DNA of 64,000 bases, taken from a virus (Duplodnaviria; Caudoviricetes). The notes under the pieces were generated by a model. The model saw only the letters and a program-made list of their open reading frames with translations, did no database searches and was not told the origin of the DNA. Position 1 is the first letter of the stretch. Each line of letters starts with the position of its first letter. Shown piece after piece: positions 155 to 41,683 of this stretch. A program made the position numbers and the translations under genes. The stretch is from the IMG/VR virus record IMGVR_UViG_3300037067_006113, positions 32,001-96,000 of that record; one strand, given 5' to 3'.

Positions 155-343
155 TTGATAACTGAGTGCTGTGGAGGAGGAAAGTCATTATCTAGAATGA
201 ACCTTCTCAAGTTTACGAGTAGAGACTTGAATGGTAATTCTTTTACGTAAACAACCTATCTTGTCCTCTTTCGTTAAGAGGCGACGATAGTACCTTATCC
301 CTCTACTAAAGGATTATTCAGTCACACAACACTCAATTGTCAA
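155..343 (-). ncRNA. candidate structured ncRNA (~190 nt) inside the tRNA array
   Basis: Ends pair over 19 nt (TTGACAATTGAGTGTTGTG / CACAGCACTCAGTTATCAA); several internal hairpins; no ORF in the track. Confidence 0.55.
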
Positions 344-349
344 AGTTTT

Positions 350-966: not shown

Positions 967-1049
967 TGCAAGGTCCAGATTCGAACTGGCATTTCCAGTG
1001 GGGTTCTTGCGAACAACCCACTAGTGTCCTACCGCTAGACGAACTAAGC
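967..1049 (-). ncRNA. tRNA-like RNA whose anticodon loop is replaced by a GCAA-capped extended stem
   Basis: D arm TCGTCTAGCGGTAGGAC; T arm CCAG-TTCGAAT-CTGG; CTAGTGGG..GTTC-GCAA-GAAC-CCCACTGG; poor acceptor stem; no CCA. Confidence 0.65.
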
Positions 1050-1052
1050 ATA

Positions 1053-39186: not shown

Positions 39187-39262
39187 GCCACTGTGGCGGA
39201 ATGGCATACGCGTACGCCTTAGGAGCGTAATTCTAGAGGTTCGACTCCTCTCAGTGGTACCA
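39187..39262 (+). tRNA. tRNA-Leu(UAG), short variable loop
   Basis: TACGC-CTTAGGA-GCGTA; CCA. Confidence 0.92.
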
Positions 39263-39658: not shown

Positions 39659-39907
39659 ATGGAAATAGTTAGTACAGACTTATATCAAGTTGCTCTATAT
39701 ATCTGTTACGGGGGTAAAGTAAAGAATTTTAAGGGAATGGGAACCACAAAGAGTGGCTATGCTAAAAAGTATTTCTACGTAGAAATTAGTCCTTTTAGGA
39801 AATGGTTAGCCGACAATATAGGCATAGTACATTACACAACATTTAAATGGGCAAGGCAATATGCAAAGAAGTTAGATAGAAAACAGATACCTAATAGGTT
39901 ATGCTGA
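39659..39907 (+). CDS. small basic protein within the tRNA array (possibly DUF5659-like)
   Basis: STDLYQVALY pattern; fills the gap between tRNAs. Confidence 0.6.
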   Translation: MEIVSTDLYQVALYICYGGKVKNFKGMGTTKSGYAKKYFYVEISPFRKWLADNIGIVHYTTFKWARQYAKKLDRKQIPNRLC

Positions 39908-39976: not shown

Positions 39977-39990
39977 TAATAATATAATAA

Positions 39991-40064
39991 GGTCCTTTCG
40001 TCTAACAGTAGGATCTTAGGTTCTCAGCCTAAAGACGTGAGTGCGATTCTCATAAGGACTACCA
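39991..40064 (+). tRNA. tRNA-Glu(CUC)
   Basis: TTAGG-TTCTCAG-CCTAA; Glu-type D arm; CCA. Confidence 0.9.
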
Positions 40065-40068
40065 GTAA

Positions 40069-40146
40069 GCGCCATTAGCCCAAATGGCAGAGGCGGTAAG
40101 CTCAAACCTTGCTCATGTGTAAGTTCGAATCTTACATGGCGTACCA
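40069..40146 (+). tRNA. tRNA-Leu(CAA), short variable loop
   Basis: GTAAG-CTCAAAC-CTTGC; CCA. Confidence 0.9.
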
Positions 40147-40295
40147 TTGAAAACTGAATAGGCTCGTTATGGGCAGTGAACCATTAGGGACTAGGAGTCT
40201 AGTAATATGTTAACTAAACGGTAATTGCAATCTATTACCACCTAGAGGTGTACAACTCTGCAAGTCAAACCTTGCCGAGCCTACTTAGTTTTTAA
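40147..40295 (+). ncRNA. tRNA-like RNA (core 40160-40282) with a branched domain replacing the anticodon loop
   Basis: AGGCTCG/CGAGCCT acceptor; ATGG/CCAT D stem; GCAAG-TCAAAC-CTTGC T arm; outer TTGAAAACTGAAT/ACTTAGTTTTTAA duplex; no CCA. Confidence 0.65.
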
Positions 40296-40301
40296 GTTTA
40301 T

Positions 40302-40625
40302 ATGAAGATTAAAGAGATAACAGAAGATCATATTCTATTTGATAATGGTATAAAAATAACTTATTACCATAATCAAGATTGTTGTGAAAATGTATATGCT
40401 GATTTTAGGCAGTTATTAGATACTACAATATTAGTAGAGGATTTTAAGAGATTATATATGCAGGGTATAAAAGATACAGGGGTAAGACTTAATGGTTATT
40501 TAATACCTTGTTATAATTACCAAAATGGATATTATTCTAGTGATTTAACTATAATAGTTAGTTATCCAGACGGTAGAGTTAAAGAAATAGACGCCAGTAG
40601 TTTTGTGGAAGATCATATAGATTAA
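40302..40625 (+). CDS. conserved phage hypothetical protein
   Basis: HNQDCCENVY...NGYYS motifs. Confidence 0.75.
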   Translation: MKIKEITEDHILFDNGIKITYYHNQDCCENVYADFRQLLDTTILVEDFKRLYMQGIKDTGVRLNGYLIPCYNYQNGYYSSDLTIIVSYPDGRVKEIDASSFVEDHID

Positions 40626-40700
40626 GCTTCTATAGCTCAACGGACAGAGCACTCGTCTTCGGAACGAGTAATGGGGGTTCGATTCCTCTTAGAAGCTCCA
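40626..40700 (+). tRNA. tRNA-Arg(UCG)
   Basis: CTCGT-CTTCGGA-ACGAG; CCA. Confidence 0.92.
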
Positions 40701-40791: not shown

Positions 40792-40867
40792 GGGTTTGTA
40801 GCTAAACGGTTACAGCAATCGGCTCTTAACCGAGAGATTGAAGGTTCAAGTCCTTTCAAACCCACCA
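40792..40867 (+). tRNA. tRNA-Lys(CUU)
   Basis: Loop CTCTTAA; CCA. Confidence 0.93.
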
Positions 40868-40943: not shown

Positions 40944-41019
40944 GCCGCCGTATCCCAACGGCAGAGGAAAACGACTTAAAATCGTTAAAGTAGTGGTTCG
41001 AATCCACTCGGCGGTACCA
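40944..41019 (+). tRNA. tRNA-Leu(UAA), short variable loop
   Basis: AACGA-CTTAAAA-TCGTT; CCA. Confidence 0.92.
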
Positions 41020-41446: not shown

Positions 41447-41683
41447 ATGAAACAAGTAAAATTAAGTTATAATAATATCGAATCCATTGTATGGTTAGAT
41501 GAAATAGTAAAGGTTGGAGATGGTGTTACATTGAAGGATTCTGAATATCCAAAAAGAATATGGAAAGTCATTGAAATATTTAATGCATCCATAGATAAGA
41601 GAAATATAAAAGATGGAAGAGATTGGTTTGGCACAGATTATGTAAAAAAGAGTGGTTCGTATTTAAGTAAACAATGGTCATAA
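41447..41683 (+). CDS. hypothetical protein within the tRNA array
   Basis: ORF fills the gap between tRNAs. Confidence 0.65.
   Translation: MKQVKLSYNNIESIVWLDEIVKVGDGVTLKDSEYPKRIWKVIEIFNASIDKRNIKDGRDWFGTDYVKKSGSYLSKQWS

What the first reader, a model, noticed from the sequence alone, without database searches (positions are those of the whole stretch)
40147..40295. tRNA-like scaffold with a two-hairpin domain at the anticodon position, enclosed by a TTGAAAA stem
Seen: tRNA geometry (7-bp acceptor, 2-nt linker, 4-bp D stem, variable hairpin AGAG/CTCT, 5-bp T stem). The anticodon stem TAGG/CCTA encloses ACTAG-GAGT-CTAGT and GGTAAT-N8-ATTACC. The outer arms TTGAAAAC.../...GTTTTTAA echo the gene-wrapping repeats at 34-38 kb. 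This is the third anticodon-less tRNA mimic in the window. Inference: natural tRNA-scaffolded RNAs displaying different cargo domains, released by the same processing signal as the wrapped genes.
Basis: partly seen in the sequence, partly recalled or inferred. Interest (0 to 1): 0.72.

Follow-up and report, generated by a model that had tools for sequence, protein, structure and literature searches.

The report
Clamped tRNA wreck in phage tRNA operon
The 149-base element is a real folded unit in a phage's tRNA operon, but it looks like the remodelled wreck of the phage's own lysine tRNA gene held shut by a long end-to-end helix, not a tRNA scaffold showing off foreign cargo, and no relative carrying it could be found.

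Summary
AGAG/CTCT shares one A with CCTA. The "T loop" has 6 nt, not 7. The D and variable stems are thermodynamically disfavoured (pair probability about 0.1 and 0).

Only the 19-of-20-pair closing helix is statistically exceptional. It runs from the base after tRNA-Leu(CAA)'s CCA to 6 nt before the DUF7448 start codon. The whole unit folds at z about -5, the 109-nt interior alone at z -1.2.

The interior (40211-40271) is homologous to this phage's own tRNA-Lys(CUU), positions 8-71 (1 of 1000 shuffles reach the score). The "cargo" hairpin GGTAAT/ATTACC is therefore rebuilt from that tRNA's D loop and anticodon loop.

X is not a decoding or intron-bearing tRNA and matches no Rfam family. No homologue was found in any collection searched. 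In the one detectable relative, different sequence follows tRNA-Leu(CAA).

Best reading: a tRNA-derived, non-decoding, end-clamped RNA module. Its helix marks and protects the tRNA-to-mRNA boundary, probably as a host RNase III-type site. A trans-acting mimic and a neutral relic remain open.

The scan has noted anticodon-less tRNA-frame RNAs in other phages. None shares sequence with X.

The parts
40147..40159 (+). 5' arm of the closing helix (outer 10 bp plus the A of the A/C mismatch). It starts at the base after the CCA of tRNA-Leu(CAA).
   Evidence: (I6), 46: pair probabilities 0.92-1.0. 17 Watson-Crick pairs, 2 G-U pairs and 1 mismatch over 20 positions.
40160..40166 (+). Acceptor-like 5' strand AGGCTCG.
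   Evidence: P 0.95-1.0.
40167..40210 (+). 44-nt 5' segment with no tRNA similarity. It holds the TT linker, the D-like hairpin ATGG/CCAT (40169-84), TAGG (40185-88) and the hairpin ACTAG-GAGT-CTAGT (40190-40203).
   Evidence: best tRNA match no better than shuffles (fraction 0.79). D stem P about 0.1, ACTAG hairpin P 0.85.
40211..40271 (+). Fossil of a tRNA-Lys(CUU)-like gene (tRNA positions 8 to about 71). It has a 3-nt deletion in the anticodon stem and a 5-nt deletion in the T stem. It includes the hairpin GGTAAT/ATTACC (40220-39), CCTA (40241-44) and GAG/CUC (40245-58).
   Evidence: score 17.5; null 11.85 +/- 1.37; 1/1000; MAFFT; best score against 30 tRNAs of another phage is only 11.0.
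40260..40275 (+). T-arm-like hairpin GCAAG-TCAAAC-CTTGC. It abuts the acceptor 3' strand and has a 6-nt loop without the T-loop consensus.
   Evidence: (P 0.97-0.99).
40276..40282 (+). Acceptor-like 3' strand CGAGCCT, followed by A and then CTT (no CCA).
40283..40295 (+). 3' arm of the closing helix. It ends 6 nt before the ATG of the DUF7448 gene.
40069..40146 (+). tRNA(CAA), the upstream neighbour. Its 3' maturation would set the 5' end of the element.
40302..40625 (+). DUF7448 gene (107 aa) with no Shine-Dalgarno sequence. Its stop codon abuts tRNA-Arg(TCG) at 40626.
39144..39172 (+). Sigma-70-like promoter (TTGATT-17-TATAAT with TG) upstream of the first tRNA of the array. It is the likely start of the transcript that includes the element.
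   Evidence: consensus match only.

Best explanation
X is a single-copy, non-decoding RNA module of the phage's + strand tRNA operon. It was built from a duplicated copy of the phage's own tRNA-Lys(CUU) gene. That copy lost its cloverleaf (deletions in the anticodon and T stems, loss of the D stem), gained about 44 nt on the 5' side, and is now clamped by a helix of 19 pairs over 20 positions formed by its two ends.

Shown:
- The helix fills the gap exactly, from tRNA-Leu(CAA)'s CCA to 6 nt before the DUF7448 start codon.
- The helix carries almost all of the statistical signal.
- The interior is a tRNA-Lys paralogue.
- X is not a tRNA, not an intron-bearing tRNA and not in any Rfam family.

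Inferred:
- X is co-transcribed with the tRNAs from the promoter at 39144-39172.
- Its 5' end is made by 3' maturation of tRNA-Leu(CAA).
- The long helix stacks on the T-like hairpin into about two turns of duplex. This duplex is either cut by the host's double-strand-specific RNase (RNase III type) or stays as a 5'-terminal clamp.
- Either way the helix separates the tRNA part of the transcript from the DUF7448 mRNA. It leaves that SD-less mRNA with a very short leader, as tRNAs do for the other two ORFs in the array, and it shields the ends of the excised piece from exonucleases.
- No function is assigned to the interior hairpins.
For: - Stems present and highly probable.
- z -5.1 for the whole unit against -1.16 for the interior.
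- Helices of at least 19/20 pairs are rare (about 3 per strand per shuffled genome), and this one spans the intergenic gap exactly.
- Two of the three non-Watson-Crick positions are G-U on the + strand, and the + strand folds slightly better (-48.9 against -44.8).
- Homology to the phage's own tRNA-Lys(CTT), 1/1000 shuffles, and not to tRNAs of another phage.
- Acceptor and T-like hairpin in tRNA register, 0.18% of shuffles.
- Not called by ARAGORN even with introns allowed, nor by Infernal at E<=10.
- No CCA and a 6-nt T loop, unlike all 30 tRNAs.
- The three in-array ORFs lack an SD and start 5-6 nt after a tRNA or after X. The DUF7448 stop codon abuts tRNA-Arg.
- Precedent: the T4 tRNA cluster is one transcript holding 8 tRNAs, species I and II RNAs and the segB ORF, whose stop abuts tRNA-Arg (PMC2330249).
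- Promoter upstream of the array.
Against: - No homologue of X was found, so no covariation test is possible. The copies in four landfill and groundwater runs are identical.
- In run X5, near-identical tRNA-Glu/Leu(CAA) genes are followed by other sequence, so X is dispensable in a relative.
- The other two in-array ORFs do without such a helix.
- The phage encodes no RNase III, so cleavage would depend on an unknown host.
- A helix this good arises about 3 times per strand per genome by chance.
- The + / - strand energy difference is small.
- No expression data are available.
Confidence: 0.45

Rival explanations
1. Trans-acting tRNA mimic or decoy. X is released as a stable tRNA-frame RNA that occupies a tRNA-recognising protein. 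Candidates are a host tRNA nuclease, a modification or repair enzyme, or the neighbouring DUF7448 protein. This would form part of the phage's investment in tRNA supply and repair.
For: - The acceptor plus T-like hairpin keep the 12-bp tRNA stack and junction lengths.
- The phage carries a full tRNA set, RtcB, RlaP and a phosphoesterase next to other end-paired RNAs.
- DUF7448 genes recur beside RtcB, in tRNA arrays, or behind long non-coding structured stretches in other phages.
- Another phage's array (L021) holds sealed tRNA-like units with extended acceptor helices.
- The changes relative to tRNA-Lys all improve the GGTAAT/ATTACC pairing.
- Earlier scan notes describe such RNAs in other phages (unchecked).
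Against: - The tRNA elbow cannot form canonically: there is no GG in the D-like loop and the T loop has 6 nt without TPsiC.
- The D and variable stems are disfavoured.
- The interior is no more structured than shuffles.
- The ex-anticodon loop is buried in a stem.
- X shares no sequence with the other elements.
- No conservation was found, and X is not at this junction in a relative.
- No Ro60 gene in the phage.
Confidence: 0.2
2. Neutral relic. X is a dead duplicate of tRNA-Lys(CUU) decaying between a tRNA and an acquired gene. The flanking inverted repeat is a by-product of the DNA event that created or inserted it and has no RNA function.
For: - The interior is a broken tRNA paralogue.
- Its fold is unexceptional.
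- X is single copy.
- It is not at this junction in a relative.
- DUF7448 is a mobile accessory gene found in unrelated phages.
- Comparable helices arise by chance a few times per genome.
Against: - The helix ends coincide with the tRNA end and the gene start.
- It extends a tRNA acceptor stem by 10 further pairs, which decay would not create.
- Its mismatches are mostly G-U on the transcribed strand.
- Spacers elsewhere in the array are 1-12 nt, so 155 nt of junk is unusual in this compact operon.
Confidence: 0.2
3. DNA-level element. The 20-bp terminal inverted repeats mark a miniature mobile element or a recombination/insertion scar linked to the arrival of the DUF7448 cassette.
For: - Terminal inverted repeats, 85% complementary.
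- X and the DUF7448 gene sit together between two tRNA genes.
- A relative has another sequence at the junction.
Against: - Only one copy in the genome.
- No hit in any collection.
- No target-site duplication is visible.
- DUF7448 homologues elsewhere have no such repeat.
Confidence: 0.07
4. A working tRNA after all: either one with an intron or insertion that is removed, or one with an expanded anticodon domain.
For: - It lies in a tRNA array.
- It has a 7-bp acceptor with A at the discriminator position.
Against: - ARAGORN with introns up to 120 nt and lowered thresholds does not call it.
- No Infernal tRNA hit at E<=10.
- There is no 7-nt anticodon loop anywhere in register.
- No CCA, although all 30 tRNAs encode it.
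- All 20 amino acids are already covered.
Confidence: 0.02

Closest known systems
Phage T4 species I and II RNAs (rnaC, rnaD) and the segB ORF in the T4 tRNA gene cluster
   Same: - Non-tRNA small RNAs and a protein gene are embedded in one tRNA-cluster transcript.
- The ORF's stop codon abuts tRNA-Arg, and its expression is thought to be limited by RNA structure and tRNA processing (PMC2330249).
- From my own memory, not checked here: species I RNA is about 140 nt, of unknown function, and can be cut by RNase III in vitro.
   Different: - No sequence relation could be tested, because the T4 RNAs are not in Rfam and no blastn hit to any phage record was found.
- X is visibly a wreck of a specific tRNA paralogue and is closed by a much longer helix.
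- The host and phage group differ (siphovirus-like, 32% GC, landfill and groundwater).
Canonical tRNA (Rfam RF00005), specifically this phage's tRNA-Lys(CUU) at 40792-40867
   Same: - Sequence homology over tRNA positions 8-71.
- 7-bp acceptor and a 5-bp hairpin abutting it.
- A 2-nt linker after the acceptor.
   Different: - No anticodon arm.
- The D stem is lost.
- 6-nt T loop.
- No CCA.
- 44 extra nt after the acceptor 5' strand.
- The acceptor is extended by 10-11 pairs.
- Not scored as tRNA by Infernal or ARAGORN.
Bacterial Y RNAs with a tRNA-like domain (YrlA, RF02553; D. radiodurans Yrn1)
   Same: - Non-decoding RNA with a tRNA-like domain and paired 5'/3' ends.
- In Yrn1 the D-like and T-like arms have the same order as in X (PMC4201824).
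- These RNAs are linked to RtcB-type repair operons.
   Different: - No RF02553 hit on X.
- No Ro60/TROVE gene in the phage.
- No GNCGAA motif.
- YrlA has T before D, a closed acceptor loop and canonical D/T tertiary nucleotides, which X lacks.
manA RNA (RF01745), a structured RNA of T4-like cyanophages
   Same: - Another element of the same phage (164-346, - strand, between two tRNAs) matches it full length below threshold.
- X shares the short CUGAAUA motif right after its 5' arm.
   Different: - X itself gives no manA hit at E<=10.
- It lacks the rest of the consensus.
RNase III processing stems that bracket units of polycistronic transcripts (rRNA operons, T7 early mRNAs)
   Same: - A long-range duplex of about two turns is formed by sequences flanking a unit and lies exactly at the unit's boundaries.
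   Different: - Cleavage is untested.
- The host is unknown.
- The phage encodes no RNase III.

Membership tests
tRNA (RF00005) | Scores at or above the 29-bit gathering threshold, or is called by ARAGORN | tested here: not met
   No hit on 40147-40295 even at E<=10. ARAGORN at default settings, with introns allowed, and at thresholds down to ps50 does not call it.
tRNA (RF00005) | Anticodon arm: 5-bp stem with a 7-nt loop | tested here: not met
   A 4-bp TAGG/CCTA stem encloses 52 nt with two hairpins. No 7-nt loop lies in register.
tRNA (RF00005) | 7-nt T loop with T54-Psi55-C56, and GG in the D loop for the elbow | tested here: not met
   T-like loop is TCAAAC (6 nt). D-like loop is GCAGTGAA, without GG. 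All 30 tRNAs of the phage have 7-nt T loops.
tRNA (RF00005) | Free 3' end with CCA (encoded in every tRNA gene of this phage) | tested here: not met
   The acceptor 3' strand is followed by A-CTTAG, which is paired with the 5' flank.
tRNA (RF00005) | 7-bp acceptor stacked on a 5-bp T stem with no spacer, and a 2-nt linker to the next helix | tested here: met
   The joint occurrence appears in 0.18% of shuffles.
Intron-bearing tRNA | Removing an insert restores a canonical tRNA | tested here: not met
   ARAGORN -i0,120 gives no call. Alignment to tRNA-Lys shows deletions in the anticodon and T stems, not a clean insert.
tmRNA | tRNA-like domain with CCA plus a tag reading frame; detected by ARAGORN or RF00023 | tested here: not met
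YrlA / Y RNA (RF02553) | Covariance-model match | tested here: not met
   No RF02553 hit overlaps X at E<=10. The weak hits lie on pairs of real tRNAs.
YrlA / Y RNA (RF02553) | Ro60 (TROVE) gene nearby | tested here: not met
   No PF05731 match in the 115-kb genome at E<=1. The host genome is unknown.
manA RNA (RF01745) | Covariance-model match | tested here: not met
   None for X. The element at 164-346 scores 29.1 bits against a threshold of 55.2.
T4 species I/II RNAs | Sequence or structure homology to T4 rnaC/rnaD | tested here: inconclusive
   blastn of X against 50,697 phage records gave only two chance-level hits (E = 2), none in T4-like phages. No covariance model exists for these RNAs.
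RNase III processing stem | Duplex of about 20 bp or more formed by the flanks of the processed unit | tested here: met
   19 of 20 positions paired, extended by the stacked 5-bp hairpin.
RNase III processing stem | Staggered cleavage in the duplex in vivo or in vitro | not testable with these tools
   No RNA run holds the sequence.

The most novel reading that the evidence does not exclude
X, the sealed tRNA-like unit at 36219-36352, the RNAs beside RtcB, and the sealed tRNA-frame units in the tRNA arrays of other large phages (L021, L024) are members of an undescribed functional class. These would be end-clamped RNAs recycled from tRNA genes that work with RtcB-type repair and DUF7448 proteins in the conflict over tRNA cleavage, for example as nuclease decoys or repair platforms.
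Probability: 0.12. Interest if true: 0.75.

Novelty: new variant of a known kind. Interest (0 to 1): 0.33.

Why it matters
If the end-clamp reading holds, a phage has turned a spare tRNA gene into a punctuation and stability module for a gene embedded in a tRNA operon. That would be a bacterial-virus counterpart of tRNA punctuation and of T4's unexplained species I and II RNAs.

The result also corrects a tempting over-reading. A "tRNA scaffold with cargo" can be an illusion produced by a decayed tRNA refolding on itself. This matters for the many similar calls this scan has made in other phages.

The recurrent placement of DUF7448 genes next to RtcB, tRNA arrays and long structured non-coding stretches gives that unknown protein family a testable link to RNA.

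Tried and rejected
**Searches for homologues (all empty or chance level)**
- megablast and blastn against 50,697 phage records (for the sister element).
- Exact-pattern scans of IMG/VR and JGI metagenomes with an X segment, two tRNA-Leu(CAA) anchors and a degenerate tRNA-Lys/X D-arm pattern. The single IMG/VR hit was an unrelated GC-rich phage tRNA and the eight metagenome hits had no tRNA.

**Searches through proteins**
- The 857-aa virion protein has no IMG/VR relative.
- The best non-self hit of the 377-aa tail protein is 41% identical, and its contig has no tRNA.
- DUF7448 homologues are at most 66% identical, in other genomic settings, and have no X-like sequence upstream.
- The genome search cannot draw relatives for a virus record, and the L021 record is not held.

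**Sequencing runs**
- No RNA holder is listed, so there is nothing on expression.
- The DNA holders carry X without any change, so no covariation can be read.

**Ideas dropped**
- A shared TTGAAAAC processing signal.
- X as a paralogue of the other end-paired RNAs.
- Similarity of the T-like hairpin to the tRNA-Leu(CAA) anticodon arm: 15 of 16 nt, but within chance (fraction 0.09).
- Similarity of the 5' segment to tRNA-Glu or tRNA-Trp: not significant.
- Genome-wide excess of long-range helices: not shown.
- Phage-encoded RNase III or CCA-adding enzyme: none.
- Palindromic loop motifs (UGCA, GUAC, GUUAAC) as kissing sites: post hoc and untested.

Full report
**Setting**

The window is bases 32001-96000 of a 115,271-bp IMG/VR phage record rated complete. 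It is about 32% GC and has a siphovirus-type tape measure gene. It also encodes RecA, a cysteine desulfurase and an MT-A70 methylase.

The phage has 30 tRNA genes covering all 20 amino acids: 28 by ARAGORN and two more by Infernal. Every one encodes its CCA.

The finding, called X here, lies in the + strand array. It starts at the base after the CCA of tRNA(CAA) (40069-40146) and ends 6 nt before the ATG of a 107-aa gene (40302-40625). That gene belongs to DUF7448, and its stop codon abuts tRNA-Arg at 40626. A good sigma-70-like promoter sits at 39144-39172, ahead of the first tRNA.

Three details need correcting:
- AGAG/CTCT shares an A with CCTA.
- The T-like loop is 6 nt (TCAAAC).
- The cloverleaf costs 8.5 kcal/mol relative to the MFE (-40.4 against -48.9).

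In the ensemble the following all have pair probabilities above 0.85:
- the closing helix
- the acceptor
- TAGG/CCTA
- ACTAG/CTAGT
- GGTAAT/ATTACC
- the T-like hairpin

The D stem has about 0.1 and the variable stem about 0. Those two segments pair with each other in a long interrupted helix instead.

The motif TTGAAAAC is not enriched (6 found, 5.7 expected). The ORF-wrapping repeats near 35.5 and 37.8 kb have different arm sequences.

**What carries the statistical signal**

The whole unit folds far better than shuffles (z -4.9 and -5.1). The parts alone do not:
- 109-nt interior: z -1.16
- anticodon-position domain: z -0.85
- Lys-like part: z -1.5

The exceptional feature is therefore the closing helix. 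It has 17 Watson-Crick pairs, 2 G-U pairs and one A/C mismatch over 20 positions. Across the genome, helices of this quality at 80-450 nt spacing number 6 and 9 on the two strands, against 2-4 and 1-7 in shuffled genomes. They are therefore not enriched. One whose ends coincide with a tRNA end and a gene start is still very unlikely by chance.

The - strand folds nearly as well (-44.8). Strand assignment therefore rests mainly on the operon context and the two G-U pairs.

Given the acceptor helix, a D-like hairpin after a 2-nt linker together with a 5-bp hairpin abutting the 3' strand occurs in 0.18% of shuffles of the interior. The tRNA register of the outer frame is therefore not accidental.

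**Ancestry**

A gapped alignment of X against the phage's 30 tRNAs singles out tRNA-Lys(CTT) at 40792-40867.
- X 40211-40271 aligns with tRNA positions 8-71.
- 18 of 22 bases are identical across the D arm.
- The local score is 17.5. The null, taken as the best of 30 tRNAs over 1000 dinucleotide shuffles, is 11.85 +/- 1.37, and one shuffle in 1000 reaches 17.5.
- MAFFT gives a colinear alignment in which the T-like hairpin and the 3' acceptor strand of X correspond to those of the tRNA.
- Against the 30 tRNAs of another phage the best score is 11.0, which is chance level. The likeness is therefore to this phage's own gene and not to tRNAs in general.

Relative to tRNA-Lys, X lacks 3 nt of the anticodon stem and 5 nt of the T stem, and the D stem no longer pairs.
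- The GGTAAT strand of the "cargo" hairpin is the old D loop, and ATTACC is the old anticodon loop.
- CCTA is the old 3' anticodon stem.
- The "variable hairpin" loop is, in the local alignment, the old T loop.

All four differences from tRNA-Lys within GGTAAT/ATTACC improve its pairing. That hints at selection, but it was noticed post hoc.

**What it is not**

- Not a tRNA, with or without an intron.
- Not a tmRNA.
- Not any Rfam family at E<=10.
- No YrlA match, and the phage has no Ro60 gene.
- No manA match for X.

**Conservation**

None could be shown. All of the following returned nothing:
- sequence searches of phage records
- exact and degenerate pattern scans of IMG/VR and JGI metagenomes
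- searches through neighbouring proteins

The closest tail-protein relative is 41% identical.

The same phage, with an identical X, is present in landfill and groundwater runs. One further run holds near-identical tRNA-Glu(CTC) and tRNA(CAA) genes, but the sequence after the CCA differs and looks like the start of another tRNA. X is therefore not at this junction in the only detectable relative.

**Context that bears on function**

Three ORFs sit inside the array: 39659-39907, 40302-40625 and 41447-41683. None has a Shine-Dalgarno sequence, although other genes of the phage do. Each starts 5-6 nt after a tRNA or after X, and each ends at or within 8 nt of the next tRNA. X thus occupies the place a tRNA holds for the other two.

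This mirrors phage T4. There, eight tRNAs, species I and II RNAs and the segB ORF share one transcript. The segB stop codon abuts tRNA-Arg, and structure plus tRNA processing are thought to limit its expression (PMC2330249).

DUF7448 genes elsewhere are notable.
- One lies inside a 29-tRNA array 5.5 kb from RtcB in a 113-kb contig (L021).
- One sits directly upstream of RtcB and behind a 557-nt structured non-coding stretch with a degenerate tRNA-like core (L024).
- Three lie behind a 218-nt structured stretch (L025-27).

None of these stretches resembles X in sequence. In L021 the gene is preceded by a small membrane ORF and a normal ribosome-binding site.

**The other "mimics"**

X shares no sequence with the other end-paired RNAs of the genome.
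- The unit at 164-346 (- strand) is a full-length, sub-threshold match to manA RNA (29.1 bits, E about 1e-5). It is not an inflated tRNA.
- The unit at 36219-36352 (- strand) does look like a sealed tRNA. It has a Leu-like D arm, a TGCAAAT T loop and a closing helix of about 16 pairs (6 + 10 around an A/G mismatch), but no Rfam hit.
- Three large RNAs lie between RlaP and a phosphoesterase on one side and an intein-bearing RtcB on the other.
- L021's array also holds sealed tRNA-frame units.

The scan has reported anticodon-less tRNA-frame RNAs in other phages. Those notes are unchecked leads. X cannot be tied to any of them by sequence.

**Mechanism and rivals**

I commit, at 0.45, to a tRNA-derived end-clamped module whose working part is the helix. 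It is made in the tRNA operon transcript, and its 5' end is set by tRNA(CAA) maturation. The two-turn duplex is either cut by a host RNase III-type enzyme or kept as a 5' clamp. Either way it separates the tRNAs from the DUF7448 mRNA and protects the ends. All processing steps are inferred.

Rivals:
- a trans-acting tRNA mimic or decoy (0.20)
- a neutral relic (0.20)
- a DNA-level repeat element (0.07)
- a working tRNA (0.02)

**Verdict**

The feature is real, but the "tRNA scaffold displaying cargo" reading is largely an artefact of a decayed tRNA refolding on itself. There is no conservation and no expression evidence. It is a new variant of a known kind, namely non-tRNA RNAs in phage tRNA clusters. 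Interest is moderate to low (0.33). The genome-wide theme of tRNA-derived and RtcB-linked RNAs is worth more than this single element.

Noticed in passing
window 164-346 (- strand): The 183-nt unit between tRNA-Asn and tRNA-Pro is a full-length but sub-threshold match to manA RNA (RF01745; 29.1 bits against a cut-off of 55.2; E 3.5e-5 to 6.6e-6). The conserved GUGACUGAAUAA...UAAGGU core is intact. manA was described in marine T4-like cyanophages. Here it sits in a landfill/groundwater siphovirus-like phage, flanked by tRNAs and not upstream of a gene.
   Followed up: partly
window 36219-36352 (- strand): Sealed tRNA-like unit with a closing helix of about 16 pairs (6 + 10 around an A/G mismatch), a TG linker, a Leu-like D arm (GCGG...CGC), a 60-nt central domain and a T arm with loop TGCAAAT, as in the phage's Met tRNA. 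No Rfam or phage blastn hit. Its 5' arm resembles that of RNA B next to RtcB.
   Followed up: partly
L009 14855-15653 (- strand; genome coordinates, upstream of the window): Three large end-paired structured RNAs lie between RlaP (PF10127) plus a metallophosphoesterase and an RtcB gene that carries an intein with an HNH domain. B and C share an 18/20 core (TGCAAC..GACTATACGAGT). There is no Rfam hit and no Ro60 gene in the phage.
   Followed up: partly
window 39187-39262, 40069-40146, 40944-41019: All three tRNAs with leucine anticodons (TAG, CAA, TAA) are 76-78 nt with a short variable region (class I shape). Bacterial tRNA-Leu is class II. The Ser and Tyr tRNAs of the phage keep long arms. 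The tRNA(CAA) of the unrelated phage contig L021 (3247-3322) is also 76 nt.
   Followed up: no
window 39659-39907, 40302-40625, 41447-41683: Three ORFs inside the tRNA array lack Shine-Dalgarno sequences. Each starts 5-6 nt after a tRNA or X and ends at or within 8 nt of the next tRNA. This suggests tRNA-punctuated, nearly leaderless mRNAs, as proposed for T4 segB.
   Followed up: partly
window about 985-1052 (- strand): Right after tRNA-Gly(TCC) lies an aberrant tRNA-Glu-like sequence with a D arm and a TTCGAAT T arm, but also an anticodon stem of about 10 bp, a 9-nt loop and no matching acceptor 5' strand. Its best match is tRNA-Glu(TTC) (shuffle fraction 0.04).
   Followed up: partly
L021, L024, L025-L027: DUF7448 genes recur in RNA-related settings. 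One is inside a 29-tRNA array near RtcB (L021 6001-6324). One is immediately upstream of RtcB behind a 557-nt structured non-coding stretch with a degenerate tRNA-like core and a closing helix of about 25 bp (L024 868-1424, z -3.3). Three lie behind a 218-nt structured stretch (z about -4) near a metallophosphoesterase (L025-27).
   Followed up: partly
L021 3497-3620, 3978-4180, 5605-5752, 5531-5604: The tRNA array of this 113-kb NCBI contig holds several sealed tRNA-frame units. For example, one has acceptor GTCACTG/CAGTGAC extended by 5 pairs, D arm GCTT/AAGC, T loop TGCAAGT and an 8-bp stem with an insert in place of the anticodon arm. ARAGORN also calls a tRNA there with a four-base anticodon (atac).
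   Followed up: no
window 39986-40146, in sequencing run X5: A low-coverage 2024 run under a different organism label holds tRNA-Glu(CTC) and tRNA(CAA) with only two spacer changes, but with different flanks on both sides. A relative of this phage therefore exists with a rearranged array.
   Followed up: partly
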